The notes under the pieces were generated by a model, which saw only the letters and a program-made list of their open reading frames with translations, had not been told where the DNA came from and searched no databases. This document shows positions 6,668-56,567 of a stretch of 64,000 bases of DNA, piece after piece. Position numbers and translations under genes: made by a program. This DNA is from a phage, in sequence record PQ724392.1; one strand, given 5' to 3'. Positions within the stretch are counted from its first letter, which is position 1. The number at the start of each line of letters is the position of its first letter.

Positions 6668-7186
6668 TTAATAACCCCGGTCCTGACGAGCAAAGTTCTC
6701 AGCGTTTTTCAGGTAATACAATTTAAAGATTTCTTCTGCAGTCAGTCCAAGGCCATGGAACATGTTCAGAACAAAGTGCAGGATATCAATCATCTCAAAT
6801 TTAATTTCGAGCTGGTCTTCGGGAGACAACTCATCAATACGACGATTACGGAATTCAGCATGTTGGACTTTCCATGGTTTCCATACACTAGATGCAGCTT
6901 TCTCGCCATTAGACATACCACCGAGAGAAGTCAGAAGTTCACGGAATTCGTCGTCGACATAATCTTTCTGGTTACGAAGCCATGCAACAACATCACCTGC
7001 AGTAGTCAATTCATCTGGATGTGAGTTATATTCTGGTTTTTCAGTAGCCAGACGAACTTGCAATGATTTCTGCATATCAAGCATAATCTGCAGCGGGTCA
7101 GTACCTTTTGTAATCGCATTGTCATAAGCTTCTTCAGCTTTATCAACACCAGCAATCAGTTGGGAACACTCGTTAAAATGAGCCAT
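6668..7186 (-). CDS. 56: dCTP pyrophosphatase gp56 (MazG-like)
   Basis: Start set at ATG 7186 (MAHFNEC...); matches remembered T4 gp56 through the C-terminal KNAENFARQDRGY. Confidence 0.75.
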   Translation of the reverse strand: MAHFNECSQLIAGVDKAEEAYDNAITKGTDPLQIMLDMQKSLQVRLATEKPEYNSHPDELTTAGDVVAWLRNQKDYVDDEFRELLTSLGGMSNGEKAASSVWKPWKVQHAEFRNRRIDELSPEDQLEIKFEMIDILHFVLNMFHGLGLTAEEIFKLYYLKNAENFARQDRGY

Positions 7187-11127: not shown

Positions 11128-12567
11128 TTAAAATTTCATTTGAGCAGCAAGGTCGTCCAGGTCGCTCCTGTTGACCCTGGTTTGTCGATTCATTTCAGCC
11201 TGGCGATTCATCTCACCGGTGGCTTCTTTAACCGTAGGACCTTGTTTAGGAGCTGAATCATCATCAACCTCATACCAGCGCTGATTACCTTTCTTAACAC
11301 CCATCTTGAATTTATTATAGTAGTTCTTATCACCATAACGAGACTTAAGCTGTTTGATTAACTGCAGCCCCATTTGAGCGAATTCTTCGGTCTCAACAAC
11401 ACCCAACATAAAGTCAGCTGTATGAGCAATACCAAAGGATTCTGCGATATCAGCCATATCAATCTCAGCTGCAACGTTCGCGCCCCTGGTTGTCTGCGCT
11501 GCAGTCCACAGGACCACATTTTTCTCGACTGCCAGACCACGAAGTTCTTCTGCAACCATCTTAATCAGACCGTAACTATTTTCGGTAAACGTTTTCAGTC
11601 TTGAGCTCGCACAGATTGCCAGGTAGTCAACAATAATCACATCCGGCACAAACCCTTGCTTCAGCTTGTACTCGTTCAGTAATGCACGGAAGGTGTCCGC
11701 ATGAGCACCGCCAGTTGGATATTGTTTTATTTTCAGAGTCCCAAGAGTCCCGGAAGCACGCCATTTTTCCATCTTAGCTTTATATTCTGCCCATGATATA
11801 TGACCTTCATCAATATCATCCAGAGACACATCCAGCAAGTTGGCATCAATACGTTTGGCACATACTTCTTCGGCCATTTCCATGCTTATATAAAGCACGT
11901 TATGACCAGTCTGAAGATAGTCAGCGGCTAACGAACAAAGTCCTAGAGATTTCCCGACGTTGGTCCCAGCCAGTAAAACGTTTTCTGTACCATACTCAAC
12001 TCCACCCTTCGTGATTTTATTCAGGATGTTAATGCGGAACGGAACCTTTTTCGATTTGTTCAGATAAGTCTGGAATCGAGCTTCGTAATCGTTTAACCAG
12101 TCATGGCCCAGTGCAGAGTCAAAACAGATGGACAATGCATCACGCATGATGTCAGGGATAGCACCGATATCCGGGATTCGTTTATCACGTTTATCTTTCG
12201 GAAGTTCGGCATTACTCTGGATTTCGATAATCCTGGATGTGGCATTGAACATCGCAGACTTCTGTACATACTTCTCGGTTTCTCTGACCAACCATTCCTG
12301 GTCTTCTGGAGTATCGGCCAGGACTCCTAAGAGTTTCTTTGTGCCTTCGTATTCAACTTCAGAAAGGTCAGAACTGTCGAGCGCGATATCAAGTGCAGTC
12401 TTAGTTGGCACCGCCTGATATTCTTTTACGTGTTCGTTAATCGTATTAAAAAGGGTCTTCGCTGGACCCTTTTCAAAATATGTGCTATTCAGATATGGCC
12501 AGACTTTAACAAAATATTCCTTGTTAAAGAGTAGCTGGGATAAAATAGTTTCTACCACTTCCACCAC
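11128..12567 (-). CDS. 41: replicative DNA helicase gp41 (DnaB-like)
   Basis: 479 aa; Walker A GTNVGKS; T4 synteny between 61 and uvsX. Confidence 0.9.
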   Translation of the reverse strand: MVEVVETILSQLLFNKEYFVKVWPYLNSTYFEKGPAKTLFNTINEHVKEYQAVPTKTALDIALDSSDLSEVEYEGTKKLLGVLADTPEDQEWLVRETEKYVQKSAMFNATSRIIEIQSNAELPKDKRDKRIPDIGAIPDIMRDALSICFDSALGHDWLNDYEARFQTYLNKSKKVPFRINILNKITKGGVEYGTENVLLAGTNVGKSLGLCSLAADYLQTGHNVLYISMEMAEEVCAKRIDANLLDVSLDDIDEGHISWAEYKAKMEKWRASGTLGTLKIKQYPTGGAHADTFRALLNEYKLKQGFVPDVIIVDYLAICASSRLKTFTENSYGLIKMVAEELRGLAVEKNVVLWTAAQTTRGANVAAEIDMADIAESFGIAHTADFMLGVVETEEFAQMGLQLIKQLKSRYGDKNYYNKFKMGVKKGNQRWYEVDDDSAPKQGPTVKEATGEMNRQAEMNRQTRVNRSDLDDLAAQMKF

Positions 12568-12896
12568 CTCTTTTTCATTTTAATCTTATCAATTTCATCT
12601 TGTATTTGCATTGTAACACACTTTTCTACATGCACTGCAAGCTCCGCTTTGCGGTCTTCAGAAGGGGTGCCGAAATCAACTGAAACTTTTCCCGATGGTT
12701 CAATTTTAATTCCGGTTACGTACACAATGTGATTGGACCCATCAGGGAGTGATAACAGAATTTCCTGCCGTACAGTTCCCATGGATTGCCGGATAATCTC
12801 CAAACTTTTTTCGTAGTAAGGTACAGAAGGAGCCTTAGCTCCCTCCGCATCTTTCTCGAAATTATCTAAATCAGATAAATCGATATCATTCATCAA
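12552..12896 (-). CDS. 40: gp40-like protein
   Basis: 114-aa ORF between uvsX and 41, the position of T4 gene 40. Confidence 0.45.
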   Translation of the reverse strand: MMNDIDLSDLDNFEKDAEGAKAPSVPYYEKSLEIIRQSMGTVRQEILLSLPDGSNHIVYVTGIKIEPSGKVSVDFGTPSEDRKAELAVHVEKCVTMQIQDEIDKIKMKKRWWKW

Positions 12897-14064
12897 GGTC
12901 TTCCATCATATCTAAATCGTTTTCGATATCTGCCGCAGATGGTTTTGCCTTACCTTCAGGGGCAGAGTATTTTTCAACCTTGGAGGCAATAAGCGCATCA
13001 ACTTCGGCGTCAACAACAGCATTGCTATCGATTGCACCCAGCTGGTAATGGCGTTTGATTGCATCACGGAAAGGTTCGTGCTTAAACAATGGGCCCCAGA
13101 ATTCGGTGCAGTTAGTATCTTTTGCACGCCATGATTTTTCTTCGCGGACCATTTCACCGGTCTCAACATCAAGATATTCACGGTTATACCAACCAACTTT
13201 CGGTTTCACCACAAATCCGATTTCCATTGCCATATCAAGCAGGCCAGAATACGGGTCAATACCCCCATCGAATTTTACATCAATGAAGAATTTACTTTTC
13301 TCTTTGACCATACGAGATTTTTCGGCGTTCAGAACAAATTGGAAACCTTCAAGTTCTTTACCAGTTTCTTTAATCTGGCGTTTGCCGATAATGAATACGG
13401 TGTCCGCAGAATACATAACACCTGTACCACCGGTCATAACGGTTTTGCTATACATCTCAATCGTCTCGATTGTATGGTTAACCGCGACACAAGGAATATC
13501 CTTGATACTAAAATATGGGGTAACAATACGGAACAGAGATTTCAGGGATTTAGCACGAGTCATATCGCCAACGACTTTTTCGTTCATCGCATCTTCTGTT
13601 TCTTTTTTCGACGCCATGTTACCGATTGAGTCAATAAAGATAATGACTTTTTCACCGCGCTCAATTGCTTCAAGCTGGTTAACCATATCAACTTTCAATT
13701 GTTCAACCGACTGGATTGGTGTGTGGATAACACGCTCCGGGTCTACTTTCATTGCACGCAGATAGGCTTCTGTGATACCAAATTCTGAATCATAGAACAA
13801 ACAGATTGCTTCGGGGTATTTGTTCATATATGCAGAGACCATCGTTAAACCCATATTGGATTTAAAGTGTTTTGACGGACCAGCAAAAATAGTCAAACCT
13901 GACTGCATACCACCATCTAGTGCACCGCTGATTGCAATGTTCAGCATCGGGATTTTTGTACGAACTACATCTTTATCATTAAAAAACTTGGACTTAGTAA
14001 GAGTCGCAGTCATTTTGGATGTAGAAGCTTTAATCAAACGGGATTTCAAATCTGCAATAGACAT
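12886..14064 (-). CDS. uvsX: UvsX recombinase (RecA-like)
   Basis: 392 aa; Walker A GPSKHFKS; T4 synteny. Confidence 0.9.
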   Translation of the reverse strand: MSIADLKSRLIKASTSKMTATLTKSKFFNDKDVVRTKIPMLNIAISGALDGGMQSGLTIFAGPSKHFKSNMGLTMVSAYMNKYPEAICLFYDSEFGITEAYLRAMKVDPERVIHTPIQSVEQLKVDMVNQLEAIERGEKVIIFIDSIGNMASKKETEDAMNEKVVGDMTRAKSLKSLFRIVTPYFSIKDIPCVAVNHTIETIEMYSKTVMTGGTGVMYSADTVFIIGKRQIKETGKELEGFQFVLNAEKSRMVKEKSKFFIDVKFDGGIDPYSGLLDMAMEIGFVVKPKVGWYNREYLDVETGEMVREEKSWRAKDTNCTEFWGPLFKHEPFRDAIKRHYQLGAIDSNAVVDAEVDALIASKVEKYSAPEGKAKPSAADIENDLDMMEDLDE

Positions 14065-14143
14065 TCATTTTTTCCATAGGCACCATTATATTTTTCTCAC
14101 AGGTTTAAGATAGGATAATTATATCACTGTATTTTTAGAGCAA

Positions 14144-14272
14144 TTAACGATTGAATCCACGATTAATTGCACGTTCAACAATCTTCCGGGTCTGACGTTT
14201 GTCCCACCAGTACATAAAACCAATACCAAATGCAGACAACAACCACAGACTAATCAATAGCATACCAATCAT
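14144..14272 (-). CDS. small single-TM peptide
   Basis: 42-aa frame translated by hand (MIGMLLISLWLLSAFGIGFMYWW...); below ORF-track cut-off. Confidence 0.3.
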   Translation of the reverse strand: MIGMLLISLWLLSAFGIGFMYWWDKRQTRKIVERAINRGFNR

Positions 14273-14298
14273 AATATTTTTCTCGCAGTTCAGAGTAA

Positions 14299-14406
14299 TT
14301 TAGTAAACGTTTCCACGTTTCCAGTTTTCTTCAGCCAAATGCTTATTACGCTTTTCTAATAGCAGCAAACCAATTACTGTTCCAACAATCAGAAGTAATA
14401 ATAGCA
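14299..14406 (-). CDS. small single-TM peptide
   Basis: 35-aa frame (MLLLLLIVGTVIGLLLLEKRNKH...) starting right after the lipoprotein stop. Confidence 0.3.
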
Positions 14407-14910
14407 TCAGTTAATACCTTGGCGTGCTTTCTCTTTAGCTACACATTTATTAATATAGCTCAGACGGTTTTGAGCAGAACGCTGATACATATCGCGATAC
14501 TCATTGGCTTTTGGAGAACCCGTCTCCGCTGCCTGATAAGCTTCTGCACGCATGATGTTTATCTGCATATTGATATATGACATGCAGACCTGTGAAATCT
14601 GGTTAACAGTATCCAGGTCATTTTGGCGCTTGGTTTCTGCTTCCAGTTTAGCAATGATTTCGTCATGCTTCGCAGCTTGTTCGCGTTTGTACTCAATTTC
14701 ACGTTGAGCATATTTCGCGCAGTTATTTCCACATTGATTGTTGTCGCGTTTGTAGATAAGTCCAGTACCACCTTTGAAATCAAAGGAACCATTATGCACC
14801 TGACGGTCTGCAGCAATTCGCGCTTTACCAATCTCATTGGCATTAACAACATCACCCTGGTAAGCACAACCAGATAGCAGCATAACAGCTGCGATAGCTA
14901 ACTTTTTCAT
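14407..14910 (-). CDS. putative lipoprotein
   Basis: Start at MKKLAIAAVMLLSGCAY (signal peptide plus LSGC lipobox); sits where T4 has beta-gt/42. Confidence 0.5.
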   Translation of the reverse strand: MKKLAIAAVMLLSGCAYQGDVVNANEIGKARIAADRQVHNGSFDFKGGTGLIYKRDNNQCGNNCAKYAQREIEYKREQAAKHDEIIAKLEAETKRQNDLDTVNQISQVCMSYINMQINIMRAEAYQAAETGSPKANEYRDMYQRSAQNRLSYINKCVAKEKARQGIN

Positions 14911-15060
14911 TGTATTTTCCTCAATTAAAACATTCATAACGGGCTTGGAGTCCCAAAAATATCCAACCCAAAATTAAAGTTGGAATCATATGCGGAGTCA
15001 TTATTGCCCAATAGATTGACATACTAAAAAATGCAATCAGTACAATAATTGTAATTATCT

Positions 15061-15303
15061 TCATTTGGTTTCCTTGATGATAATTAACTGTGCGTTTGAT
15101 TTACGTTCAGCAACGAGTGCCCAAATAAACGCAATAAACCACCCAACCATTGTCCAACCTAACAGAAGGTTAACAAAGAAGATTCCGCAATTACTTTTGG
15201 TTCCACGCAGTAGCGCGATAATCCACGGTAGAAAATAGGTCAGTGCAGCCAGGAAGAAAGAACCAGCACCAAGAACAACAGTACCTGCAATTAATGTTTC
15301 CAT
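15061..15303 (-). CDS. imm: Imm-like small membrane protein
   Basis: 80 aa, two hydrophobic helices, immediately downstream-adjacent to gene 43 as T4 imm. Confidence 0.5.
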   Translation of the reverse strand: METLIAGTVVLGAGSFFLAALTYFLPWIIALLRGTKSNCGIFFVNLLLGWTMVGWFIAFIWALVAERKSNAQLIIIKETK

Positions 15304-15375
15304 TTTAATATCCTTAAGTTAATCATCAGTAATTGATGGAGTAATCATACGGCAATCCTTTGCCGTTGTAAACAC

Positions 15376-18090
15376 TTAAAAGTCAAACATATCAAAAAGA
15401 GATGCTTTTTTCTCGTAATCAACCTTAGCTGCTTCAGAGAACCCTGTCAATGGCTTAACAAAAGTCTTCTGGAACAGCGTGTTGTAGTCCATCCACTGCA
15501 AGACTTGGTCACGAATTTCAATCGGGAGTTCAATCCCTGATGGCCATGCAATCACGGTTTCGCCAAACGGGTTACCAACTTTAAGAGGAAGCACATACAC
15601 CTTTTCCCCTTCCATGATTTGTGGAACAGTCTTCAGCCCTTTAGTTGCACGCATATATGCAAGCACACCTTTGATATGAGCCGGGCACTTAAATCCAGGG
15701 AAACCGCCCTCATTATATTTCTGGATGTTGTTAACCGATGATACACCCGCGATGGTCATGTAGTTAAGCTCATTAAATTCCTTATTGAATTCCTTGAAGT
15801 ATGTCTGCAGAGATTCTTCACCTTCTTGCAGCATACGGCGGATACATTCTTTCAGAGCTTTCTGACATGCTTTTGGTGTACTCGACTTTTGAGTTTCCAG
15901 GCCCATGATTTTCAGTTTCGGAACAGCATATCGTGTGCCTTCCATATCGTACACGTTCAGAGCATAACGCTTCTTCGCCGTCCAGAATCCACCAACACCT
16001 TTAGAACCAAGTGGAGGACATGCAATCGCTTCACGGTCCATAAACATAAGGTGCTGTTTGTTGTTCATGTATTCAGCCAGCTCACGGAAAGCTTTATCGA
16101 TTGCTGGTTCCAGACGGTCTTTCGCGAACTTGTCCATGAAGTCAACCAGGTGGTTTGTATCGCGGAATTTAGATTCACCACCAACCTTTTTAATCAGGTT
16201 ATCGCACTGGATATAAATGGAGTCAGTATCACCATAGAATACATATGTTTCACCACTTGTACCGCAAACACTATCAAAATATTCGTTAACTTTACGCTCA
16301 ATCCACTGCAATGCAAGTTGTCCGAAAGATGTAATCGCGGTTGCATTTCGCAGGTCAAAGTAACGGAACCAGATATTACCCAGAGCGCCATAACAACTGT
16401 TGATAAGCAGTTTACGGTTAATCTGTGCGGTCATGCCTGCAACTTCTTCCATTTGTGCTTTGTACAACATACCATTCAGAACTGTTTGATTCAGACCATG
16501 CAAGGTTGTTTTCATATTGTCATCAAAGTCATAACGATAATCAACTTCAGGCTCGGTTGTACCAGTTCCTGGATTACGCAGGGCTTCCTTAATCAGTTCA
16601 CCATTACGTTGAGCCGCAAGCATATAACCTTTATGCTCTTTACGCTGATTAAACACCTTGGTGACTTCTGTCGGAATAATACCCGCAACATCTTTAAAAT
16701 ACATCATACCGTTTGGAGCACAACTAAATGTATCAGATGGACGGTCAGCAGTTCCTGCAATGTATTCATACATCGGCGCTGGTGTAAATGACCCGGCAAT
16801 CGTTTCTGGACTAATGTTAATCTGTCGGATGATGCTCGGATACAGAGATGTTAAATCACAGCTCATAACATATTTGTATGCGTTCGGAATCGGTTCCTTA
16901 ACAAATGCACCCGGGAACGATTGACGAACATGCGATTTGGTTTCCGGAATGACTTTATTTTGAGTCTTCAGGCTGTTAAAGATAATCGCATCCCAAGTTT
17001 TGATTGGGCTGAATACAGACTGAATCTGCATTTTTGCGTAATAACCCATTGACTGGCTAAGGTTAATAAACTGACGCTTACGGTCAATCTGTACAACACG
17101 ATAAACATCGATGATGTTATAAGAAATATACCGTTGGTGATTTGATTCGCGCAGTTTAGAAATCGGGCCATCATACGGGAGTTTACCAACACCCAGCTCA
17201 GATTCCGCAACATAATCCAACGAATAAGATGGCTGGTTTGTGAAGCTGAACTTTTTATACAGGTCCAGATAATCCAGAACAGAGATACCCAGAATCTGAA
17301 TGATTTCTTGTTCTTCACCGAATCCGTTGTTAATGACCTTAACTTTTGTACGACGATGTGGACTCAGACGTTTTGCCGTAGCTTCACCAAACACATTTTT
17401 AAGGCGGTTGTAGATATATGGAATATCAAACTTCTCGATGTTCCAACCAGTTAACATAACCGGAGTTTTCTCGTTCCAGAATACCAAATACTGCTGGAGC
17501 ATTTCTTCTTCTGAATCGAAAGCCATATAAACAATTTTTTCCAGGATTTCTTCAGGGACTTCATCGCCGCCATCTTCTTGCAGCTTAGCAGCAATATCAA
17601 TAGACCATTGCTCCACAGTGGCGTATGGTGAGCTCAAAAGGTCAAAGACATAGAATTTATCGTCTACCGAATCATAGTGCGTCAGGGCATCAATAGGGTG
17701 ACGTGCTTCAGACGGCTCAGGGAACCCATCAGGAGATGTCACCTCGATATCGAAGTTAGCCACACGGATTTTACTTGAATCGTATTTGATTTCGTGCGGG
17801 TAACGGTCGGACAAGTATGCGAGTTTAAAGTCATCCATACCCATAGCTTCGAGACCCATTTCATTCATTCGCTTCATCCACTGGGATGCATCACGCATGG
17901 AATCGAATTCTTTTTTCACACAACCTTTATTATAGATGTCTGTATACTTTGCGGCCTGGTCTTCGCGGGCGTGCATAAACAAGCATGGAGCATAAGGGAT
18001 TTCACGAACACGTTCATGACCGTTCTTGTCAATGTATCGTTCGAGCAGATTGTCACCGATTTGTTCGATAGTTAAATAAAATTCTTGCAT
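15376..18090 (-). CDS. 43: DNA polymerase gp43 (family B)
   Basis: 904 aa; YGDTDS polymerase motif; exonuclease FDIE motif; T4 synteny. Confidence 0.95.
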   Translation of the reverse strand: MQEFYLTIEQIGDNLLERYIDKNGHERVREIPYAPCLFMHAREDQAAKYTDIYNKGCVKKEFDSMRDASQWMKRMNEMGLEAMGMDDFKLAYLSDRYPHEIKYDSSKIRVANFDIEVTSPDGFPEPSEARHPIDALTHYDSVDDKFYVFDLLSSPYATVEQWSIDIAAKLQEDGGDEVPEEILEKIVYMAFDSEEEMLQQYLVFWNEKTPVMLTGWNIEKFDIPYIYNRLKNVFGEATAKRLSPHRRTKVKVINNGFGEEQEIIQILGISVLDYLDLYKKFSFTNQPSYSLDYVAESELGVGKLPYDGPISKLRESNHQRYISYNIIDVYRVVQIDRKRQFINLSQSMGYYAKMQIQSVFSPIKTWDAIIFNSLKTQNKVIPETKSHVRQSFPGAFVKEPIPNAYKYVMSCDLTSLYPSIIRQINISPETIAGSFTPAPMYEYIAGTADRPSDTFSCAPNGMMYFKDVAGIIPTEVTKVFNQRKEHKGYMLAAQRNGELIKEALRNPGTGTTEPEVDYRYDFDDNMKTTLHGLNQTVLNGMLYKAQMEEVAGMTAQINRKLLINSCYGALGNIWFRYFDLRNATAITSFGQLALQWIERKVNEYFDSVCGTSGETYVFYGDTDSIYIQCDNLIKKVGGESKFRDTNHLVDFMDKFAKDRLEPAIDKAFRELAEYMNNKQHLMFMDREAIACPPLGSKGVGGFWTAKKRYALNVYDMEGTRYAVPKLKIMGLETQKSSTPKACQKALKECIRRMLQEGEESLQTYFKEFNKEFNELNYMTIAGVSSVNNIQKYNEGGFPGFKCPAHIKGVLAYMRATKGLKTVPQIMEGEKVYVLPLKVGNPFGETVIAWPSGIELPIEIRDQVLQWMDYNTLFQKTFVKPLTGFSEAAKVDYEKKASLFDMFDF

Positions 18091-18151
18091 TTGGTTTCCT
18101 TTATAGTCGAGTGATTGACTTTTGTTTTATGACTTGACGCTATTATACTAC

Positions 18152-18173
18152 AAAAGGGACCGAAGTCCCTTTG
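18152..18173 (-). terminator. stem-loop (GGGAC-CGAA-GTCCC) between regA and 43
   Basis: Hairpin read directly; followed on gene-sense by TATAAT and the gene 43 leader. Confidence 0.4.
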
Positions 18174-18180
18174 CTTTAAA

Positions 18181-18549
18181 TTAATTACCAATTGTATATT
18201 TGGCCACGAGCTTCCAGTCGTCTTTTTGTTTAAAGGAGATAACACGGAAGTTGTTTGTTACTGCGAACAATTCATTATGCTCTTCTTCTTTGATAGTAAT
18301 TAAGCCCCAGTCTTCGAGCAGTTGAGCGATGGAATCACGGCGCTGATAGTCTTCACCATCAATATCCACCTGGCGGCCATCCATGCGCAGCATTTCTTTG
18401 AAGTGAACAATATAGTAACGGCCTTGCTTTTGGAGGATGTGGCAGCTCTGGTACAGTACACGGTCTTTATTATTTGCGATGCCCATACGGGTCAGAGTTT
18501 CTTTAACTTTCAGGAAGTCTTCAGGTTGCTTTAATGTAATTTCAATCAT
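18181..18549 (-). CDS. regA: translational repressor RegA
   Basis: 122 aa (T4 RegA size); position directly downstream of 62. Confidence 0.8.
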   Translation of the reverse strand: MIEITLKQPEDFLKVKETLTRMGIANNKDRVLYQSCHILQKQGRYYIVHFKEMLRMDGRQVDIDGEDYQRRDSIAQLLEDWGLITIKEEEHNELFAVTNNFRVISFKQKDDWKLVAKYTIGN

Positions 18550-18550
18550 T

Positions 18551-19129
18551 TTACCATTCCAATATTTGTTTTTTAATTTCTTTTTGTTCTTTCACATTAC
18601 TGGTAACGGTCTTTAAGAATTCATCCGTTACCAGACCTTTTGTCTTTTTCAAAACATCTTTAAGACTACCTTTGACTTTCAATGTTTCCATATACATCAA
18701 AGCATCATCTGCATTAATTGTATAATATTTCATTAAAAGCTTTAACACAAGCTGGACGTTGACCGTATCTGGCTCAGCCTTCGCCCATTTACCATAACGC
18801 TTGCCTTGCGGAACCGCATGCAGCAAATAATTATAATGCTGTTGGTCTGTTAACCCGGAACCAATTAAGTTCATCACGTTCACCTGCATAATGCAATCGA
18901 CATGTTGGCTCAATGCGTTTTCCAACCAGAATTTATTGTAGTTTTCCGATTGAATCAGGTTCCGTGGTTTTTTACTAACGGTTATGTCATTAAGAATCGC
19001 GAACAATTCATTTTCTGCTTTCTCTTTGTATGAATCGGACAATTCCTGAATTTTGTTAAAGTCGCGTGATTTCCACACAACCTCATGTTCGTTTAATTGA
19101 ACGTCATCATCAAAGAGACTTACAGCCAT
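18551..19129 (-). CDS. 62: clamp loader small subunit gp62
   Basis: 192 aa; overlaps end of 44 as in T4. Confidence 0.75.
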   Translation of the reverse strand: MAVSLFDDDVQLNEHEVVWKSRDFNKIQELSDSYKEKAENELFAILNDITVSKKPRNLIQSENYNKFWLENALSQHVDCIMQVNVMNLIGSGLTDQQHYNYLLHAVPQGKRYGKWAKAEPDTVNVQLVLKLLMKYYTINADDALMYMETLKVKGSLKDVLKKTKGLVTDEFLKTVTSNVKEQKEIKKQILEW

Positions 19130-23420: not shown

Positions 23421-23658
23421 CCTTGATGCATGATTCAGCCATATGAATTAATGTTTCTGGAGTATCATCTACCATTACATTAAAGCTAAATTCCACAGCC
23501 CAATCGGTGACTACATAGACTTTGATAAGTTGACCGGTTTCCCGGTCAGTGATAGCTTCAAACCAATACTTAATAGTATTCGGTTGATTATCGTCGTCAA
23601 CAACATCACATTCGCGGATATGCTCAAGTCCCGCTTCATTAAAATCATAAAGTCTCAT
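23395..23658 (-). CDS. hypothetical protein
   Basis: 87-aa ORF between 47 and 46. Confidence 0.4.
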   Translation of the reverse strand: MRLYDFNEAGLEHIRECDVVDDDNQPNTIKYWFEAITDRETGQLIKVYVVTDWAVEFSFNVMVDDTPETLIHMAESCIKDAYNDENV

Positions 23659-24674
23659 GGTTGTACCTCAAGATATAATTTGTTGGCCAATGCTTTAAGA
23701 GCTTTTGATTCTTTCTCATTGGTGTCAGGTAATGCATCAATATATTCTGCCATCATATCAGTTAAGCGTTTTATGTCTAACTCTTCTTCGGAGTCAGTCG
23801 TATCAACACTGTTATCAACCTTATTGACAACACGCAATTCATGTACACGCTTTTCTAATTCAGATTCGAACTTGGTCAGGTCTTTATCGACTTTTTCTAC
23901 AATAACACGGACTGATAGGTCTTTGAAGTCGTCGTAGTTAATAGTTTCGTTTGGATAGAAAATCTTCCGATGCCAGGTGGTTTCATTCGGAATAAATTTC
24001 ATCTCTTCGGTTTCTGTATCAAATTCCCAGAATCCGCGCGGGTCATTCTCATCACCTGCTGTTAATGTCCATGGTGTCCCGATGTACTTAACGTTTGCAG
24101 CTTCTGAAATGGTATGGAAGTGCCCAGACCAAACTTGCTTGTACTTCTTAAGGAAATCGGGCTCAAGCCCGTGGGATTTCAATCCTTTATAGAAATAAAA
24201 CCCGGTTAATTCCCAGTGACCAATGCAATATTCAGCACCAGAAGTTTTGATGTGTTGATGAATGTCAGTCGCGTTCTCGTCACACATCCATGGAATCATA
24301 TCAATCTGACAGCCGTCAAAATCAACAGTCGTTGGCTTGTCGTAGATTTTAACATGGTCATACTTATTCAGGAGTTCGGTGATAGCATTAGGATGAATCT
24401 TATTCTTCAGATTCATGTCATGGTTCCCGACTATCGTGTGCATAGTAATTCCTGCTTCACGAAGGAGTTCCATAATCTCGCGGCTGAATTCCATTGTCTT
24501 ATGCGTTACAGCCTTACGGACGTCAAAAATATCACCATATTGAATCCAGACTTTAATTCCATTTGCTTTGGAATATGCAATCGCCTGTAAAATACCATCC
24601 CGTTGAATGTTTTGAGCCCATGGGTCGTCAGCTTTGACACCCAAGTGCCAATCACCTAAATTTAAAATTTTCAT
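23655..24674 (-). CDS. 47: recombination nuclease gp47 (Mre11/SbcD-like)
   Basis: Start set at ATG 24674 (MKILNLGDWHLG); ORF-track start at 24701 is a TTG; phosphoesterase motifs GDWH, GNHD. Confidence 0.9.
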   Translation of the reverse strand: MKILNLGDWHLGVKADDPWAQNIQRDGILQAIAYSKANGIKVWIQYGDIFDVRKAVTHKTMEFSREIMELLREAGITMHTIVGNHDMNLKNKIHPNAITELLNKYDHVKIYDKPTTVDFDGCQIDMIPWMCDENATDIHQHIKTSGAEYCIGHWELTGFYFYKGLKSHGLEPDFLKKYKQVWSGHFHTISEAANVKYIGTPWTLTAGDENDPRGFWEFDTETEEMKFIPNETTWHRKIFYPNETINYDDFKDLSVRVIVEKVDKDLTKFESELEKRVHELRVVNKVDNSVDTTDSEEELDIKRLTDMMAEYIDALPDTNEKESKALKALANKLYLEVQP

Positions 24675-24814
24675 AAGCCAAGCGCCGTTATCGCAGTGCA
24701 AAATAAAATTATTGAAATGAACCCGTCAGGAGTAGAAAAGAATCCTATCCAACAAGCTCGTGTGAATGTGTAGAATGCCATGAATAACACAACATATCCT
24801 AAAAATAATTCCAT
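24671..24814 (-). CDS. small hydrophobic peptide
   Basis: 47-aa frame translated by hand; GAGGAG SD; TGA stop overlaps gp47 ATG. Confidence 0.35.
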   Translation of the reverse strand: MELFLGYVVLFMAFYTFTRACWIGFFSTPDGFISIILFCTAITALGL

Positions 24815-24831
24815 ATAATCTCCTCAGTTGG

Positions 24832-24862
24832 TTCATTTTATCATCCCGAATATAAAGCAAAA
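24832..24862 (-). promoter_or_regulatory. MotA-type middle promoter candidate
   Basis: Gene-sense tttTGCTTTA-N12-TAAAAT, immediately after a hairpin+T-tract terminator. Confidence 0.4.
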
Positions 24863-24883
24863 AAGGAAGCACTAGGCTTCCTT
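24863..24883 (-). terminator. stem-loop terminator
   Basis: AAGGAAGC-acta-GCTTCCTT hairpin followed by TTTTTT on gene-sense strand. Confidence 0.5.
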
Positions 24884-25200
24884 TCCAATTAATACACCAT
24901 ACAGAGGTTCATGAGAAGACCTGAACTTGATAGGCTTATATTTAATAGTACCTTCATTTTCTGCTTTAATACGAGCGGCTTCAAATTGAAGTATCATCTC
25001 ATTTTTGTCAGATTTAATCTTATCAAAATCCGTCGAATTCGTCATTCATATGACCTCTTAAAAATCAGGATGTTCGTCTTGAAATATATTACCCAATCGT
25101 TTTAATTCGTCGGAAGTAAGAATATCTACATCATCAATAGTCATAATACACCTCTTAAACTTTTTCGTATTCGTCATTCATTAACCGGCAGTCCATGTTA

Positions 25201-25401
25201 TCATCGTTGCCACCACTTCTTAAGTTGATGTGAATCCACCCAAACCTTGGCTACAGGCTCAATCCGAAAAATTTCATCGGAATACTGCCCAACCATTTTA
25301 TATTCGGTTTCAGTCTGCTTGATACAGATATTACCATATGAGCGAAGTCTGAAAGCGGCTCCAATAAGAAGCCGTTTAAAAGGTTTATTTACTAATGCCA
25401 T
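25201..25401 (-). CDS. hypothetical protein
   Basis: 66-aa ORF co-oriented. Confidence 0.3.
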   Translation of the reverse strand: MALVNKPFKRLLIGAAFRLRSYGNICIKQTETEYKMVGQYSDEIFRIEPVAKVWVDSHQLKKWWQR

Positions 25402-25696
25402 TTACGATTTCCCAAATTTGTTTGCGAGTAGTTTCCCACATCAACTTAATCAGGTCTTCCGTAACTGGTTGGCGGTAAATTCCACGCAGTTTAACTAAAG
25501 CATATTTGTATGCTTCAAAATTGTTTTCCAGCACTGCCCCTTGAGCATGCTTATTCAGTCGTGCAATTTCACGAGCATTCTTTTTCAGAATCTTTGCTGC
25601 TTGACTCTGTGCTTCGAGCGCGTTCGCTTCTTCGAGACGTTCCTGTGCTTCTTCAATCTGCTTATCGGTCAGTTGAGAAATATCTGGAGCTTGCAT
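25385..25696 (-). CDS. hypothetical protein
   Basis: 103-aa ORF co-oriented. Confidence 0.4.
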   Translation of the reverse strand: MQAPDISQLTDKQIEEAQERLEEANALEAQSQAAKILKKNAREIARLNKHAQGAVLENNFEAYKYALVKLRGIYRQPVTEDLIKLMWETTRKQIWEIVNGISK

Positions 25697-25697
25697 A

Positions 25698-25949
25698 TTA
25701 ATCCTTGGGAGTTAACTCAATTGTAAAATATAGATTAGCATTATCCACATGATAACGGTAATCAACGTTATTATCCGGCGAAGTAAATTCCAGATTCCGG
25801 ACGTTTAAAGGGTCGATATCAATTGGAAGACCTTTTATGTCTCGCAGATAAAGTTTAATGAAATATGGGAGCGCAGTAAAGTCTTCCTCGATTTTATCTA
25901 AAAAATCGGTAATATCAAATTGATGTTCCATATAAAAAATCCAAATCAC
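25698..25949 (-). CDS. hypothetical protein
   Basis: 83-aa ORF co-oriented. Confidence 0.35.
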
Positions 25950-26472
25950 CTTCTTTATCTTTGGCGCTCTTATCAGACCCTGGCGCTTTAACTAAAGAGG
26001 ATTCGTACTGTGTCATTTTGTCATAGATGTCCTGGATAAATGTTTCATCAGCCAGAGCCACCATATCGTCGTCACGTGAATCATACACGTTATGAACGAA
26101 GTAGCTATATTTCTTTGCCATTTCTTTACGTTCTTTTTTGATACGCTGAACGAAAGCATTGAAGCAAGCCATTGTTATGTAAGCATGTGGATTATCGTAT
26201 TTTGTTTCGTCGAAGTTATGAAGACCTTTTATTGCGGCCTCAATTCCGTCTGCAATCATTTCTTGCTTCCAGGATTGGGTATATCCGGAGAAGTTGAAAC
26301 GTTTGCTAAGACCTTCGGCTATAAGCATAATTGCCAGACCAATAACATCGTTCTGGCGAATAATTTTATTCGGGTCGGTGTTCGCATTCAGCTTCTGTTT
26401 CCACTCCGAAATAGCTTTCAGAAGCTCTTTATTATTTACATAGTTATTCTTGGTTAATTTAATTTCGTTCAT
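25915..26472 (-). CDS. 55: late transcription sigma factor gp55
   Basis: 185 aa, the size of T4 gp55; position between 47 and nrd genes. Confidence 0.8.
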
Positions 26473-29742: not shown

Positions 29743-30213
29743 TTAATCATGTTTCCACACCCCATCGGTATTTGACCAAAGTCGCTGATTATCTGACCCT
29801 CGCCACAGTTTTTTGGTCGGAAGATTTTTCTCATACTTCCCATCAATAATAACATCAACATATTTAAGCATTTCTAGTTGTTTAATATCTTCAAACTTAT
29901 ATCCTGTCCACATCCAAATGCTTTTATTTGGATAAAGATTTTTAACAGTTTGAACCACAGATTGAATAACATCTCGGTTATCAGGATAGAGAGGGTCTCC
30001 TCCAGTTATAGTTAATCCTTCTATATAATCATTATTCAAACATTCAATTAATTGTTCTAGTGTTTTACCAGTGAATGGAACACCATTTCTAGCATTCCAT
30101 GTTGATTTATTATAACACCCTTCGCATTTATGCAAACAACCTGTGACGAAAAGAACGACCCTGCATCCAGGGCCATTAATAAAATCACAAGGATAAATTC
30201 TATCATAATTCAT
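29743..30213 (-). CDS. nrdG: anaerobic ribonucleotide reductase activating protein NrdG (radical SAM)
   Basis: 156 aa; CxxxCxxC radical-SAM motif (CLHKCEGC); stop overlaps nrdD. Confidence 0.9.
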   Translation of the reverse strand: MNYDRIYPCDFINGPGCRVVLFVTGCLHKCEGCYNKSTWNARNGVPFTGKTLEQLIECLNNDYIEGLTITGGDPLYPDNRDVIQSVVQTVKNLYPNKSIWMWTGYKFEDIKQLEMLKYVDVIIDGKYEKNLPTKKLWRGSDNQRLWSNTDGVWKHD

Positions 30214-55324: not shown

Positions 55325-55552
55325 TTATTTTCCTAACGAAATACGAGTAGGTTTTTTACCGAAATATTCTTCATAGGAACCATCTAAACGACCCGCTTTA
55401 GACCGACAATACGAATCATACTTTTTGTAATAAGTCAACTCGTTATTATAACGTGGATGTCTATCAGCCATAATAATACTTAATGGCCAACCTTTGGCAT
55501 AATCACGAAGACCATTTATTTTACGAATATATCTTTTCTTTAATTTTAGCAT
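55325..55552 (-). CDS. hypothetical basic protein
   Basis: 75-aa ORF co-oriented. Confidence 0.35.
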   Translation of the reverse strand: MLKLKKRYIRKINGLRDYAKGWPLSIIMADRHPRYNNELTYYKKYDSYCRSKAGRLDGSYEEYFGKKPTRISLGK

Positions 55553-55770
55553 GAGCTCGGGTGCCAGATTTTACCGTCAGGTTGAGCAACGAAGGTACGA
55601 CCAGCTTCTTCACCATAACAAGAGCTGTTCAGCCAGTCTTCAAGACGAACCTCACCATCATATTCGTCAAGCTCAATACCGAAATCTTGAGCGTTAGCCA
55701 TATCTTTTACTTTCTTATACAATGCAGCCAGTTCAAGTGCTGCTTTTTCTAATTCATTAATATCAGACAT
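55546..55770 (-). CDS. small protein, WxSSSxxC-tail family member
   Basis: 74 aa ending KIWHPSSC. Confidence 0.4.
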   Translation of the reverse strand: MSDINELEKAALELAALYKKVKDMANAQDFGIELDEYDGEVRLEDWLNSSCYGEEAGRTFVAQPDGKIWHPSSC

Positions 55771-55779
55771 TTTTATTCC

Positions 55780-55992
55780 TTAGCATTCGTAAGAGGATGA
55801 TACCCAAGAGGTACCACTAATAGTAATACAACCGTTATAAAGCGTGATATGTCGTTCTAAGTCACGAACACCATCAATGTAGATATCAGCTTCTTCGCGT
55901 TCTTCTTTACAAATCTGGATAACGTTTTCAATAGCTGCCGCGGCAGTACGGATTGCACAATCTAATTCACGAGACATATAATTCCTTAACAT
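55780..55992 (-). CDS. small protein, WxSSSxxC-tail family member
   Basis: 70 aa ending TSWVSSSYEC. Confidence 0.45.
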   Translation of the reverse strand: MLRNYMSRELDCAIRTAAAAIENVIQICKEEREEADIYIDGVRDLERHITLYNGCITISGTSWVSSSYEC

Positions 55993-56267
55993 TCAGAAGA
56001 GGAGGACACCCAACCGCCATTTTCCAGGTCAGTTGTATAGTCATGAGTGTTAACAATAGCCCATTCAGGATGGCCATGTTCTTCCCAATGGGCAAGGTCA
56101 GCTTTCAAGGCACCAGGAGAATAATAGTCACCGCCCATACCGCGAGCAGGGTATATATTAAAATGAGTCTCATATTTGTTTGCAATTTCCTCGGCACGAC
56201 GAATAGCTTTATGGATATCATTTACTGCGTTAGCCAGTTCTTTATTTTTACGGTAATCATTCATCAT
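55986..56267 (-). CDS. small protein, WxSSSxxC-tail family member
   Basis: 93 aa ending GGWVSSSSEC. Confidence 0.45.
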   Translation of the reverse strand: MMNDYRKNKELANAVNDIHKAIRRAEEIANKYETHFNIYPARGMGGDYYSPGALKADLAHWEEHGHPEWAIVNTHDYTTDLENGGWVSSSSEC

Positions 56268-56276
56268 AGCGTTTCC

Positions 56277-56567
56277 TTAGCACATTGCCGAAGAGGAGAC
56301 CCAAGCACCAACTGTAACGACACCGTTTTCAACTTCGCCGCCGTTGTTTTCAATTTCATCTTTAAACCACTGGGAGCACTCATAACCGACAGGATAATAT
56401 GTACGGCCTGAACCATAATCACCGGTACCGAATTGGATACCATATTCATCTGCGATTTCTTCACAGTGTTTTTCAATTTCAGAGGTCTTATTTAGAAGAG
56501 AATAGATAGCTTTTTCTGCAGATTTCTCATCATAATACTTGGGGATAGCAATTTCAATTTTATTCAT
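56277..56567 (-). CDS. small protein, WxSSSxxC-tail family member
   Basis: 96 aa ending GAWVSSSAMC. Confidence 0.45.
   Translation of the reverse strand: MNKIEIAIPKYYDEKSAEKAIYSLLNKTSEIEKHCEEIADEYGIQFGTGDYGSGRTYYPVGYECSQWFKDEIENNGGEVENGVVTVGAWVSSSAMC

What the first reader, a model, noticed from the sequence alone, without database searches (positions are those of the whole stretch)
14065..15375. No gene 42, beta-gt or alpha-gt at their T4 positions despite a gp56-like dCTPase
In T4 the uvsX-imm interval holds beta-glucosyltransferase and dCMP hydroxymethylase, and alpha-gt lies between 47 and 55. Here the uvsX-imm interval holds only a lipoprotein and two tiny membrane peptides, and the 47-55 interval holds three small ORFs. 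A gp56-like dCTPase is present at 6668..7186. Either the cytosine-modification genes are elsewhere in the genome, or this phage uses unmodified or differently modified DNA; the lipoprotein occupying the slot may be an exclusion factor.
Basis: partly seen in the sequence, partly recalled or inferred. Interest (0 to 1): 0.5.

Follow-up and report, generated by a model that had tools for sequence, protein, structure and literature searches.

The report
T4-like phage missing hydroxymethylcytosine genes
This T4-like coliphage (genus Gaprivervirus) really does lack the genes that T4 uses to make and sugar-coat hydroxymethylcytosine, and its relatives' only remaining thymidylate-synthase gene carries the one amino-acid change known to retarget that enzyme to cytosine, so its DNA probably contains 5-methylcytosine instead.

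Summary
The window is a Gaprivervirus, 97.8% identical to phage MN01. Between uvsX and gene 43 it has only a 42-aa and a 35-aa membrane peptide, a 167-aa lipoprotein, a gp42.1-like peptide and imm. T4 gp42, alpha-gt and beta-gt have no tblastn hit in the window. The same is true of the complete genomes of MN01 and VR7. The sister genus (JS98) carries a 4.2-kb cassette at this spot: a gp42-like hydroxymethylase plus arabinose-type genes.

Two published genome surveys (2021, 2025) already note that the genus lacks gp42 yet keeps gp56, Alc, DenB and DenA. They leave the modification unknown. Restriction data for VR7 show modified, non-glycosylated cytosines.

My explanation lies outside the window. 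The genus's only TS-fold gene, td, has Asp where E. coli ThyA has Asn177. This change is known to switch the enzyme from dUMP to dCMP, giving 5-methyl-dCMP. All eight Gaprivervirus td genes examined have Asp, and 115 of 120 T4-like Td clusters have Asn. Acinetobacter phages 133 and ZZ1, reported as also lacking gp42, have Asp too.

The predicted outcome is 5-methylcytosine DNA. This is untested biochemically. The lipoprotein is a conserved neighbour of the slot, not a replacement for gene 42.

The parts
6668..7186 (-). Gene 56 homologue (dCTPase/dUTPase, all-alpha NTP pyrophosphohydrolase)
   Evidence: 68% identical to T4 gp56. Matches PF08761 and phrog_173. Only 71% identical to VR7 gp56, although neighbouring genes are 95-99% identical.
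12886..14064 (-). uvsX recombinase
   Evidence: 98.7% identical to VR7 UvsX.
14144..14272 (-). Conserved 42-aa single-pass membrane peptide just upstream of uvsX
   Evidence: Identical in VR7, where it is unannotated, and 97.6% identical in MN01. 47% identical to an unannotated ORF in JS98 at L007 7954-8061, E 3e-7.
14273..14406 (.). Empty slot. JS98 carries here a 4.2-kb cassette, orf38-orf42: a gp42-like hydroxymethylase (orf39) plus arabinose-type genes. T4 carries gene 42, beta-gt and segA in the corresponding interval.
   Evidence: Synteny with JS98 and T4. JS98 orf38-42 have no tblastn hit in the window, MN01 or VR7. VR7 is about 100 bp shorter here.
14300..14407 (-). Variable 35-aa hydrophobic ORF inside the slot
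   Evidence: Present in the window and MN01. Absent from VR7 through a 101-bp indel. No family match.
14407..14910 (-). 167-aa predicted lipoprotein (lipobox LLSG|C, conserved QCGNNCAKYAQRE motif, helical C-terminal half), orthologue of JS98 orf43; function unknown
   Evidence: phrog_1754, E 6e-47. Found in 122 phage records, all T4-like: Gaprivervirus, Dhakavirus and Enterobacter, Serratia and Erwinia phages. N-terminal 28 aa are 50% identical to T4 Imm.1. AF2 mean pLDDT 70; the fold search was uninformative.
14921..15064 (-). gp42.1-like 47-aa membrane peptide
   Evidence: phrog_3610, E 1e-26. 96% identical to VR7 gp42.1. JS98 orf44 and an unannotated T4 ORF between genes 42 and imm are homologous.
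15061..15303 (-). imm, superinfection immunity membrane protein
   Evidence: PF14373, E 8e-18. 51% identical to T4 Imm.
15376..18090 (-). Gene 43 DNA polymerase
   Evidence: 97.8% identical to VR7 gp43.
24671..25931 (-). Interval between genes 47 and 55: 47.1, a-gt.2, a-gt.3, a-gt.4 and a-gt.5; no alpha-gt and no mobB
   Evidence: tblastn with VR7 and T4 proteins. T4 alpha-gt has no hit.

Best explanation
The window comes from a Gaprivervirus, a T-even-like lineage that has lost the whole hydroxymethylcytosine module. That module comprises the gp42-type dCMP hydroxymethylase and the sugar-transfer genes. In T4, RB69-type phages and the sister genus Dhakavirus it lies between uvsX and imm.

The lineage still keeps the machinery that excludes ordinary cytosine:
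- gp56 dCTPase (in the window)
- Alc, DenB, DenA and Ndd (in the complete genomes of MN01 and VR7)

The replacement lies outside the window. The resident thymidylate synthase gene td, still translationally coupled to frd (dihydrofolate reductase), has Asp at the position of E. coli ThyA Asn177. This substitution is known to switch thymidylate synthases from dUMP to dCMP. The proposed pathway is:
1. gp56 turns dCTP and dCDP into dCMP.
2. Td(Asp177) methylates dCMP to 5-methyl-dCMP, producing dihydrofolate that Frd recycles.
3. The gp1 dNMP kinase and host NDP kinase make 5-methyl-dCTP.
4. gp43 incorporates it, so virion DNA carries 5-methylcytosine in place of cytosine, without sugars.
5. dTMP would come from host ThyA, from salvage, or from deamination of 5-methyl-dCMP by the phage dCMP deaminase.

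**Shown here:** the gene absences, the synteny, the Asp177 state and its distribution, and purifying selection on td.
**From the literature:** VR7 DNA has modified, non-glycosylated cytosines, and Asp177 thymidylate synthases make 5mdCMP.
**Inferred:** the Gaprivervirus enzyme does this, the DNA base is 5mC, and the route to dTMP.
For: 1. **Genome-wide absence.** T4 gp42, alpha-gt, beta-gt and Dam, and JS98 orf38-42, have no tblastn hit in the window, in all of MN01 or in all of VR7. Both genomes encode gp56, Alc, DenB, DenA, Ndd, Cd, gp1 and Td.
2. **Ancestral state of the slot.** JS98 carries orf39 here, a gp42 homologue (E 3e-8 to T4 gp42), together with orf38 and orf40-42.
3. **The Asp177 state.** VR7 Td reads DVFLGLPFDIGSY. 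T4 Td (PDB 1TIS) aligns almost gaplessly (one one-residue gap near the C-terminus) and reads PFNIASY.
4. **Distribution in T4-like phages.** Of the 120 best Td homologue clusters, 115 have Asn. The five with Asp are the four Gaprivervirus-type clusters and one sister lineage, P0074.
5. **A maintained gene.** All eight Gaprivervirus td genes examined are intact, carry Asp, and have dN/dS of 0.04-0.16.
6. **Independent lineages.** Acinetobacter phages 133 and ZZ1 are reported to have DenB, Alc and gp56 but no base-synthesis enzyme (PMC8056088). Both have Asp. Their relative Acj9 has Asn; it belongs to a group reported to retain the hydroxymethylase.
7. **Methyl rather than hydroxymethyl product.** The hydroxymethylase signature is Asp or Glu three residues before the catalytic Cys, plus loss of the C-terminal tail (PMC6400193). 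It is absent here: Td reads ALPPCH and has a full thymidylate-synthase C-terminus. frd overlaps td by 4 nt.
8. **Biochemical precedent.** Asn177-to-Asp switches thymidylate synthase to dCMP and gives 5mdCMP (PMC8670742). Five of seven natural Asp177 enzymes, plus the Xp12 enzyme, made 5mdC in vivo with T4 gp1 as the kinase (bioRxiv 10.1101/2024.12.05.627091).
9. **Experiment on VR7.** Its DNA has modified, non-glycosylated cytosines, and BREX blocks the phage (PMC6326788 and its Supplementary Fig. S4).
10. **Compatibility with Alc.** Methylation of CpG sequences is reported to block Alc (Kashlev 1993, as cited in PMC8056088).
11. **No rival candidate.** VR7-specific ORFs show only homing-endonuclease-type domains.
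Against: - No enzyme assay or nucleoside analysis exists for any Gaprivervirus. The product could be 5-hydroxymethyl-dCMP or something else.
- td is not in the window, so the claim for this phage rests on relatives that are 94-98% identical.
- The VR7 restriction figure could not be seen. The legend says only 'modified cytosines'.
- Laboratory Asn177Asp mutants are poor enzymes compared with wild type (from my own knowledge).
- Fully 5mC-substituted DNA should be a target of McrBC, McrA and Mrr (from my own knowledge). Yet at least one close relative, vB_EcoM_RZ, is recorded on E. coli K-12 MG1655. An anti-restriction function would be needed, and I did not identify one.
- The absence of gp42 from phages 133 and ZZ1 is taken from the paper. 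I did not recheck it on whole genomes.
- Many small ORFs of unknown function remain, so an unrecognised modification enzyme cannot be excluded.
Confidence: 0.65

Rival explanations
1. The phage makes non-glycosylated 5-hydroxymethylcytosine DNA. Td(Asp177) acts as a dCMP hydroxymethylase and functionally replaces gp42. Only the sugar-transfer step has been lost.
For: Asp at position 177 is shared with T4 gp42 (Asp179). VR7 behaves like the non-glucosylated hmC mutant T4147 towards BREX, and its cytosines are 'modified' and 'unglycosylated'.
Against: Td has Leu, not Asp or Glu, three residues before the catalytic Cys. It also keeps the thymidylate-synthase C-terminal tail. Both are the published discriminators for methyl versus hydroxymethyl transfer (sequences). 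It is 66-69% identical to genuine T4-type thymidylate synthases and stays coupled to DHFR. The BREX authors tested T4 beta-glucosyltransferase pre-treatment. They called T4147 'hydroxymethylated' but VR7 only 'modified'.
Confidence: 0.12
2. An unrecognised enzyme encoded among the many ORFs of unknown function makes a so-far unknown non-canonical base. This is what the 2021 and 2025 genome surveys propose. The Asp177 in Td is then incidental or serves another purpose.
For: PMC8056088 and PMC12115623 raise exactly this possibility. Dozens of small hypothetical ORFs remain uncharacterised.
Against: Ten VR7 ORFs (nine with no annotated T4 or JS98 homologue, plus ORF232c) show only homing-endonuclease-type domains or nothing. 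The annotated 'deaminase' ORF147c has no zinc-deaminase motifs in its sequence. Asp177 is fixed, under purifying selection, and recurs in the two other lineages reported to lack gp42. That pattern would be an unexplained coincidence.
Confidence: 0.13
3. The phage has reverted to ordinary cytosine DNA. gp56 serves mainly as a dUTPase, and Alc and DenB are inactive, retargeted or tolerated.
For: T4-like phages with ordinary cytosine, such as RB49 and RB43, also carry gp56 and DenA homologues. No dedicated modification gene is annotated.
Against: Restriction analysis of VR7 shows modified cytosines. Alc and DenB are intact and 93-95% conserved between VR7 and MN01. In T4, growth with cytosine DNA requires loss of these functions (from my own knowledge of T4 dC-DNA mutants; the 2025 survey argues the same). 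This model also leaves Asp177 in Td unexplained and would deprive the phage of its own thymidylate synthase for no gain.
Confidence: 0.05

Closest known systems
Xanthomonas phage Xp12 and Pseudomonas phage PaMx74 type: complete replacement of C by 5-methylcytosine through a thymidylate-synthase-fold dCMP methyltransferase
   Same: A thymidylate-synthase-fold enzyme with Asp at the Asn177 position, accompanied by DHFR and a dCMP-family deaminase. The Xp12-family phage MET13-T1 has a TS(PYD)-deaminase-DHFR cluster. The predicted product is 5mdCMP. dT could come from deamination of the methylated nucleotide.
   Different: The Gaprivervirus enzyme is only about 28% identical to the Xp12-family enzyme. 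It is clearly a T4-type Td (66% identical to T4 Td), so the switch arose independently. It keeps Gln165 and His147. It works in a T-even background with gp56, Alc and DenB, and has no adjacent dedicated 5mdCTP deaminase. The activity and the DNA base are untested.
T4 hydroxymethylcytosine pathway (gp56, gp42, gp1, alpha-gt and beta-gt, with Alc, DenB and DenA acting against cytosine DNA)
   Same: gp56, gp1, Alc, DenB, DenA, Ndd, Cd and Frd are all present, and the flanking synteny is the same: 41-40-uvsX ... 42.1-imm-43.
   Different: There is no gp42, alpha-gt, beta-gt or Dam anywhere in the genome. Td carries Asp177.
RB69 and JS98 type arabinosyl-hydroxymethylcytosine cassette (Mosigvirus, Dhakavirus)
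   Same: The closest relatives of the window outside its genus, with the same flanking genes. These include the lipoprotein (JS98 orf43), the 42.1-like peptide (orf44) and the 42-aa peptide.
   Different: The five-gene cassette orf38-orf42 is missing from the window, MN01 and VR7. The Dhakavirus-like phage VR5 has glycosylated DNA and escapes BREX, whereas VR7 does not.
Engineered thymidylate synthase Asn177Asp (E. coli) and Asn229Asp (L. casei) dCMP methylases
   Same: The same single-residue change in an otherwise canonical thymidylate synthase (cited).
   Different: This is a natural, fixed variant. It comes with further lineage-specific changes, for example position 162 Gln to Leu, which is non-Gln in all natural Asp-type enzymes compared, and changes at positions 148-149 next to the catalytic Cys.

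Membership tests
T4-type hydroxymethylcytosine/glucosyl-hmC system | dCMP hydroxymethylase (gp42 homologue) | tested here: not met
   No tblastn hit at E<1e-3 in the window, the whole of MN01 or the whole of VR7. The same query finds T4 gp42 and the divergent JS98 orf39.
T4-type hydroxymethylcytosine/glucosyl-hmC system | alpha- and/or beta-glucosyltransferase | tested here: not met
   No tblastn hit in the window, MN01 or VR7. None is annotated in VR7.
T4-type hydroxymethylcytosine/glucosyl-hmC system | dCTPase gp56, and the nucleases and terminator that act on cytosine DNA (DenB, DenA, Alc) | tested here: met
   gp56 lies in the window at 6668-7186. Alc, DenB and DenA are in MN01 and VR7.
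Arabinosyl-hmC system (RB69/JS98 type) | gp42-like hydroxymethylase plus arabinose-nucleotide synthesis and transferase genes between uvsX and imm | tested here: not met
   JS98 orf38-orf42 have no hit in the window, MN01 or VR7.
Thymidylate-synthase-fold dCMP methyltransferase (5mC-substituting phages, Xp12 type) | Thymidylate synthase fold with the catalytic Cys | tested here: met
   PF00303 is recorded for P0001-P0004. E 6e-128 to the T4 TS structure 1TIS, with an almost gapless alignment and the PPCH motif. This was tested on relatives; td is outside the window.
Thymidylate-synthase-fold dCMP methyltransferase (5mC-substituting phages, Xp12 type) | Asp at the position of E. coli ThyA Asn177 (cytosine specificity) | tested here: met
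   PFDIGSY in VR7, MN01, SP18, CJ20, TH40, VR20, VR25 and VR26. 115 of 120 related clusters have Asn.
Thymidylate-synthase-fold dCMP methyltransferase (5mC-substituting phages, Xp12 type) | Methyl rather than hydroxymethyl transfer: hydrophobic residue at Cys-3, C-terminal tail present, DHFR partner | tested here: met
   ALPPCH, a C-terminus ...PAPMAV aligned to that of T4 Td, and frd overlapping td. The criterion comes from PMC6400193. This is a sequence-level test only.
Thymidylate-synthase-fold dCMP methyltransferase (5mC-substituting phages, Xp12 type) | Enzyme converts dCMP to 5-methyl-dCMP, and virion DNA has 5mC in place of C | not testable with these tools
   Only indirect evidence: the VR7 DNA restriction pattern shows 'modified', non-glycosylated cytosines.
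Imm superinfection immunity protein | Match to PF14373 and a position next to gene 43 | tested here: met
   E 7.6e-18, 64.6 bits against a cutoff of 27.9. 51% identical to T4 Imm.
Bacterial-type lipoprotein | Signal peptide ending in a lipobox L-x-x-C | tested here: met
   MKKLAIAAVMLLSG|C is invariant in 10 homologues. Lipid modification itself cannot be tested here.
Known phage exclusion lipoproteins (T5 Llp, Cor) | Sequence or fold similarity to a characterised exclusion lipoprotein | tested here: inconclusive
   No Pfam family reached its cutoff. The PHROG has unknown function. The BFVD fold search found only its own orthologue. The model has moderate confidence (pLDDT 70). No direct comparison with Llp or Cor was run.

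The most novel reading that the evidence does not exclude
Gaprivervirus coliphages, and independently Acinetobacter phages 133 and ZZ1, are T4-like phages whose DNA carries 5-methylcytosine in place of cytosine. They reached this state by a one-residue re-specification (Asn177 to Asp) of the resident thymidylate synthase, after which the gp42 and glycosylation cassette was lost. The phage then has no dUMP-specific thymidylate synthase of its own. It makes thymidylate by deaminating 5-methyl-dCMP with its dCMP deaminase, or relies on host ThyA. This would be the first 5mC-substituted lineage among T-even-type phages that I know of. It would also be a natural replay of the classic N177D experiment.
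Probability: 0.6. Interest if true: 0.75.

Novelty: new member of a known kind. Interest (0 to 1): 0.6.

Why it matters
- **An open question becomes testable.** Two genome surveys flag Gaprivervirus as a puzzle: it has all the T4 functions that destroy or silence cytosine DNA but no known way to avoid cytosine. One of them declines to advise on therapeutic use for that reason. A specific candidate enzyme and a specific predicted base turn this into a one-day experiment: LC-MS of virion DNA, or td plus gp1 expressed in E. coli.
- **Consequences for host defences, if true.** 5mC DNA would explain why VR7 is fully sensitive to BREX. It predicts sensitivity to 5mC-dependent type IV enzymes. It also predicts resistance patterns to restriction and CRISPR that differ from those of glucosyl- or arabinosyl-hmC phages.
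- **Evolution.** It would show how a phage can change its DNA chemistry by a point mutation in a housekeeping enzyme followed by loss of a cassette.
- **Annotation.** 'Thymidylate synthase' labels in phage genomes should be checked at residue 177.

Tried and rejected
- **Other TS-fold or glycosyltransferase genes.** tblastn with T4 gp42, alpha-gt, beta-gt and Dam, and with the JS98 cassette, against the window, MN01 and VR7 found only td.
- **VR7ORF147c as a second deaminase.** It is annotated as similar to a cytidine/deoxycytidylate deaminase, with a homologue at window 59418-59840. The protein has no H-x-E or P-C-x-x-C zinc motifs. It shares its C-terminus with a neighbouring paralogue. The annotation looks spurious.
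- **Window ORFs of enzyme size.** The 228-aa, 319-aa, 210-aa and 190-aa ORFs at 52.8-60.6 kb match only domains of unknown function.
- **VR7 ORFs with no annotated T4 or JS98 homologue.** Pfam shows only homing-endonuclease-type domains.
- **Unusual divergence of Td, as a sign of recent import.** Td is 68.5% identical between VR7 and JS98, which is typical for this pair (range 47-91%). Td is therefore the vertical orthologue.
- **Lipoprotein function.** The alignment has only 9 sequences. AF2 gave pLDDT 70 with a helical C-terminal half. The BFVD fold search returned only its JS10 orthologue. No function could be assigned.
- **Original VR7 papers.** The 2010 paper (Arch Virol) is not held in the library. 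I did not request the 2011 genome note.
- **Literature searches.** Three searches returned mostly irrelevant papers. None of the 18 papers in the library that mention Gaprivervirus has a title or abstract start bearing on 5mC or residue 177 of Td. I read relevant passages of six of them.
- **Not attempted.** Restriction-site avoidance statistics, because they cannot separate 5mC from hmC. Whole-genome checks of phages 133, ZZ1 and Acj9 for gp42, which I took from PMC8056088.
Full report
**What the window is.** All genes in the first 22 kb lie on the minus strand. GC content is about 40%. Bases 12000-19000 are 97.8% identical to Escherichia phage MN01 and 94% identical to vB_EcoM-VR7. Both belong to the genus Gaprivervirus (Straboviridae, Tevenvirinae). 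I used the complete genomes of MN01 (172,584 bp) and VR7 (169,285 bp) as proxies for the part of the genome outside the window.

**Checking the observation.** tblastn with VR7 and T4 proteins gives this gene order, in the direction of transcription:

| Gene | Window coordinates | Note |
|---|---|---|
| Gene 43 | 15376-18090 | |
| imm | 15061-15303 | PF14373, E 8e-18 |
| gp42.1-like peptide, 47 aa | 14921-15064 | phrog_3610 |
| Lipoprotein, 167 aa | 14407-14910 | |
| ORF, 35 aa | 14300-14407 | |
| ORF, 42 aa | 14144-14272 | |
| uvsX | 12886-14064 | |
| Gene 40 | 12555-12893 | tblastn match |
| Gene 41 | 11131-12558 | tblastn match |

- T4 gp42, beta-gt and alpha-gt find nothing in the window.
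- The gp56 homologue at 6668-7186 is real: 68% identical to T4 gp56.
- Between genes 47 (23658-24674) and 55 (25918-26472) there are five small ORFs: 47.1, a-gt.2, a-gt.3, a-gt.4 and a-gt.5. There is no alpha-gt.

So the core observation is correct. The counts of small ORFs were slightly off.

**The absence is genome-wide and affects a whole cassette.** Neither complete Gaprivervirus genome has a tblastn match at E<1e-3 to T4 gp42, alpha-gt, beta-gt or Dam. The VR7 annotation lists none either.

In the sister genus (JS98, Dhakavirus) the uvsX-imm interval holds five genes, orf38 to orf42. After them come orf43 (the orthologue of the window's lipoprotein), orf44 (gp42.1-like) and imm. orf39 is an unannotated, divergent gp42 homologue: 24.5% identical to T4 gp42, E 3e-8. 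The other four genes are annotated as similar to RB69 ORFs. They include a phosphoheptose-isomerase-like and a thymidylate-kinase-like gene, the arabinose-type set discussed in PMC8056088. None of orf38-42 has a match in the window, MN01 or VR7.

The 42-aa peptide gene next to uvsX is conserved in VR7, where it is unannotated, and in JS98. The position of the missing 4.2-kb cassette is therefore window 14273-14406. The 35-aa ORF lies there. It is present in MN01 but absent from VR7 through a 101-bp indel.

The lipoprotein is therefore a conserved neighbour of the cassette, not its replacement.

**What was already known.** Two comparative papers state that Gaprivervirus lacks the hydroxymethylase yet has DenB, Alc, DenA, Ndd and the dCTPase. 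They conclude that an unknown protein or an unknown base must be involved (PMC8056088, 2021; PMC12115623, 2025).

Gordeeva et al. (PMC6326788) report from restriction digests that 'VR7 has modified cytosines' in 'unglycosylated DNA'. In their assays VR7 is completely blocked by BREX, as is the non-glucosylated hmC mutant T4147. VR5 has glycosylated DNA and escapes BREX. VR5 carries the JS98-type lipoprotein at the JS98 position.

Eighteen papers in the searchable library mention Gaprivervirus. None has a title or abstract start bearing on 5mC or on Td residue 177, and the passages I read in six of them say nothing on it.

**The lead.** The only TS-fold gene in VR7 and MN01 is td. Its product reads ...YQRSVDVFLGLPF**D**IGSY.... 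T4 Td (PDB 1TIS) aligns over all 286 residues, with a single one-residue gap near the C-terminus. Like E. coli ThyA, it has Asn at that position, E. coli Asn177.

This residue sets pyrimidine specificity. Changing it to Asp converts thymidylate synthase into a dCMP methylase that makes 5mdCMP, and T4 gp42 has Asp179 at the equivalent position (PMC8670742, section 11, citing Hardy & Nalivaika 1992, Liu & Santi 1992 and Graves 1992). In viral metagenomes Asp177 is enriched on contigs with modified cytosine. Five of seven natural Asp177 enzymes, plus the Xp12 enzyme, produced 5mdC in E. coli when co-expressed with T4 gp1 (bioRxiv 10.1101/2024.12.05.627091).

**How specific the substitution is.**
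- Among the 120 best homologue clusters of the MN01 Td, 115 have Asn. The five with Asp are the four Gaprivervirus-type clusters (99, 87, 87 and 86% identical) and P0074.
- P0074 comes from a 5.4-kb T4-like contig. It shares many Gaprivervirus-specific residues and is best read as a sister lineage.
- All eight Gaprivervirus td genes I retrieved are intact 286-codon ORFs with Asp. Their dN/dS is 0.04-0.16, so the variant is maintained by selection.
- Td is not unusually divergent from JS98 Td: 68.5% identity, within a range of 47-91% for 29 proteins. It is the vertical orthologue with a changed active site, not an import.
- Alc and the lipoprotein are the most divergent proteins of that set, at 46.7% each.

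**Independent replication in other lineages.** PMC8056088 names two further phages that have DenB, Alc and the dCTPase but no base-synthesis enzyme: Acinetobacter phages 133 and ZZ1. Both Td proteins have Asp: KPFDIASY and MPFDIASY. Their relative Acj9 belongs to a group that the paper reports as retaining the hydroxymethylase, and its Td has Asn (CFNIASY).

A scan of IMG/VR for DVFLGxPFDI found only Gaprivervirus, phage 133 and four metagenomic contigs. So every lineage tested that was flagged as lacking gp42 but keeping Alc and DenB has an Asp-type Td. The gp42 status of the Acinetobacter phages comes from the paper and was not rechecked here.

**Methyl or hydroxymethyl.** The T4 hydroxymethylase structure paper gives a signature for hydroxymethylation: an Asp or Glu three residues before the catalytic Cys, where thymidylate synthase has Leu, plus loss of the C-terminal tail. 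Gaprivervirus, phage 133 and ZZ1 Td read ALPPCH, TLPPCH and ILPPCH. All keep the thymidylate-synthase C-terminus. frd (DHFR) overlaps td by four bases. An Xp12-family phage also pairs its Asp-type enzyme with DHFR and a dCMP deaminase. On sequence grounds the predicted product is therefore 5-methyl-dCMP. The BREX paper's wording agrees: T4147 'hydroxymethylated', VR7 only 'modified', with glucosyltransferase pre-treatment included in the test. I could not see the gel.

**Proposed mechanism.** The pathway is:
1. gp56 removes dCTP and dCDP.
2. Td(Asp177) makes 5mdCMP.
3. gp1 and host NDP kinase raise it to the triphosphate.
4. gp43 incorporates it.

Methylation of CpG sequences is reported to block Alc (Kashlev 1993). 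Whether DenB spares such DNA is not known. dTMP could come from host ThyA, from salvage, or from the phage Cd acting on 5mdCMP. DCTD-family enzymes accept 5mdCMP. Xp12 makes dTTP by deaminating 5mdCTP. These steps are inference.

**Open difficulties.**
- There is no biochemical test.
- Fully methylated DNA should be attacked by McrBC, McrA and Mrr (from my own knowledge). Yet a near-identical phage, vB_EcoM_RZ, is recorded on E. coli K-12 MG1655.
- td lies outside the window.

**The lipoprotein and small peptides.** The 167-aa protein has an invariant lipobox, a conserved QCGNNCAKYAQRE motif and four conserved cysteines. It occurs in 122 T4-like phage records, always in this neighbourhood. Its first 28 residues are 50% identical to T4 Imm.1, which also reads as a lipoprotein next to imm. 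The AF2 model (pLDDT 70) shows a confident helical C-terminal half. The fold search gave nothing beyond its own orthologue. A periplasmic role related to imm is possible. Nothing here supports or refutes an exclusion function.

**Verdict.** The most likely explanation is that the phage uses differently modified DNA, made by a retargeted thymidylate synthase encoded elsewhere in the genome. I put confidence in the 5-methylcytosine model at about 0.65.

Noticed in passing
window 29743-32027: nrdG (156 aa, 80% identical to T4 NrdG) and nrdD (605 aa) are present in the window. NrdG has no tblastn match in the complete MN01 or VR7 genome, and the VR7 annotation goes from 55.8 to gene 49 with no nrdD or nrdG. 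The anaerobic ribonucleotide reductase therefore seems to be variable within the genus.
   Followed up: partly
window 6668-7186: The gp56 of the window is only 71% identical to VR7 gp56, although flanking genes are 95-99% identical. VR7 has a segF homing endonuclease next to gene 56, which the window and MN01 appear to lack. This suggests allele replacement linked to endonuclease homing.
   Followed up: no
window 14119-14145 (minus strand): Upstream of uvsX lies TTGCTCTA, then 12 nt, then TATAAT. This resembles a T4 middle (MotA-dependent) promoter. It is invariant in the window, MN01 and VR7. The sigma-70 scan did not list it.
   Followed up: no
window 58890-59333 and 59415-59921: Two adjacent paralogous ORFs share a C-terminal motif (...GAARRA.ID..V......K..VQSYASNFRK). 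The second is the homologue of VR7ORF147c, which is annotated as deaminase-like but has no zinc-deaminase motifs.
   Followed up: partly
window 55546-56567: Four tandem small ORFs (74, 70, 93 and 96 aa). Three end in a similar C-terminal motif, WVSSSYEC, WVSSSSEC and WVSSSAMC; the fourth ends in WHPSSC. They look like a family of tandem paralogues of unknown function.
   Followed up: no
L007 8960-9658 (JS98 orf39): This gene is annotated as a hypothetical protein. It is a divergent dCMP hydroxymethylase homologue (24.5% identical to T4 gp42, E 3e-8) within the arabinose-type cassette.
   Followed up: partly
L018 6318-7175, L019 9992-10927, L020 7608-8414, L022 2368-3177: Four metagenomic viral contigs, none visibly T4-like, encode thymidylate-synthase homologues with the PFDI (Asp177) motif. 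By N-terminal sequence, their neighbours look like a dCMP deaminase (L022), a DHFR (L020) and a P-loop kinase (L018). They may be further phages with modified cytosine.
   Followed up: no
L005 36496-36999 (VR7 alc) versus L024 9343-9837 (JS98 alc): Alc is only 46.7% identical between Gaprivervirus and Dhakavirus, the lowest value (with the lipoprotein) of 29 proteins compared. This may reflect adaptation to a different DNA modification.
   Followed up: no
Td alignment, E. coli ThyA positions 162 and 165: All natural Asp177-type enzymes compared have a non-Gln residue at position 162 (Leu, Met, Lys or Ser), where 99% of Asn-type T4-like Td have Gln. Phages 133 and ZZ1 and the metagenomic enzymes also have Met at 165, as T4 gp42 does. 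Gaprivervirus keeps Gln165.
   Followed up: partly
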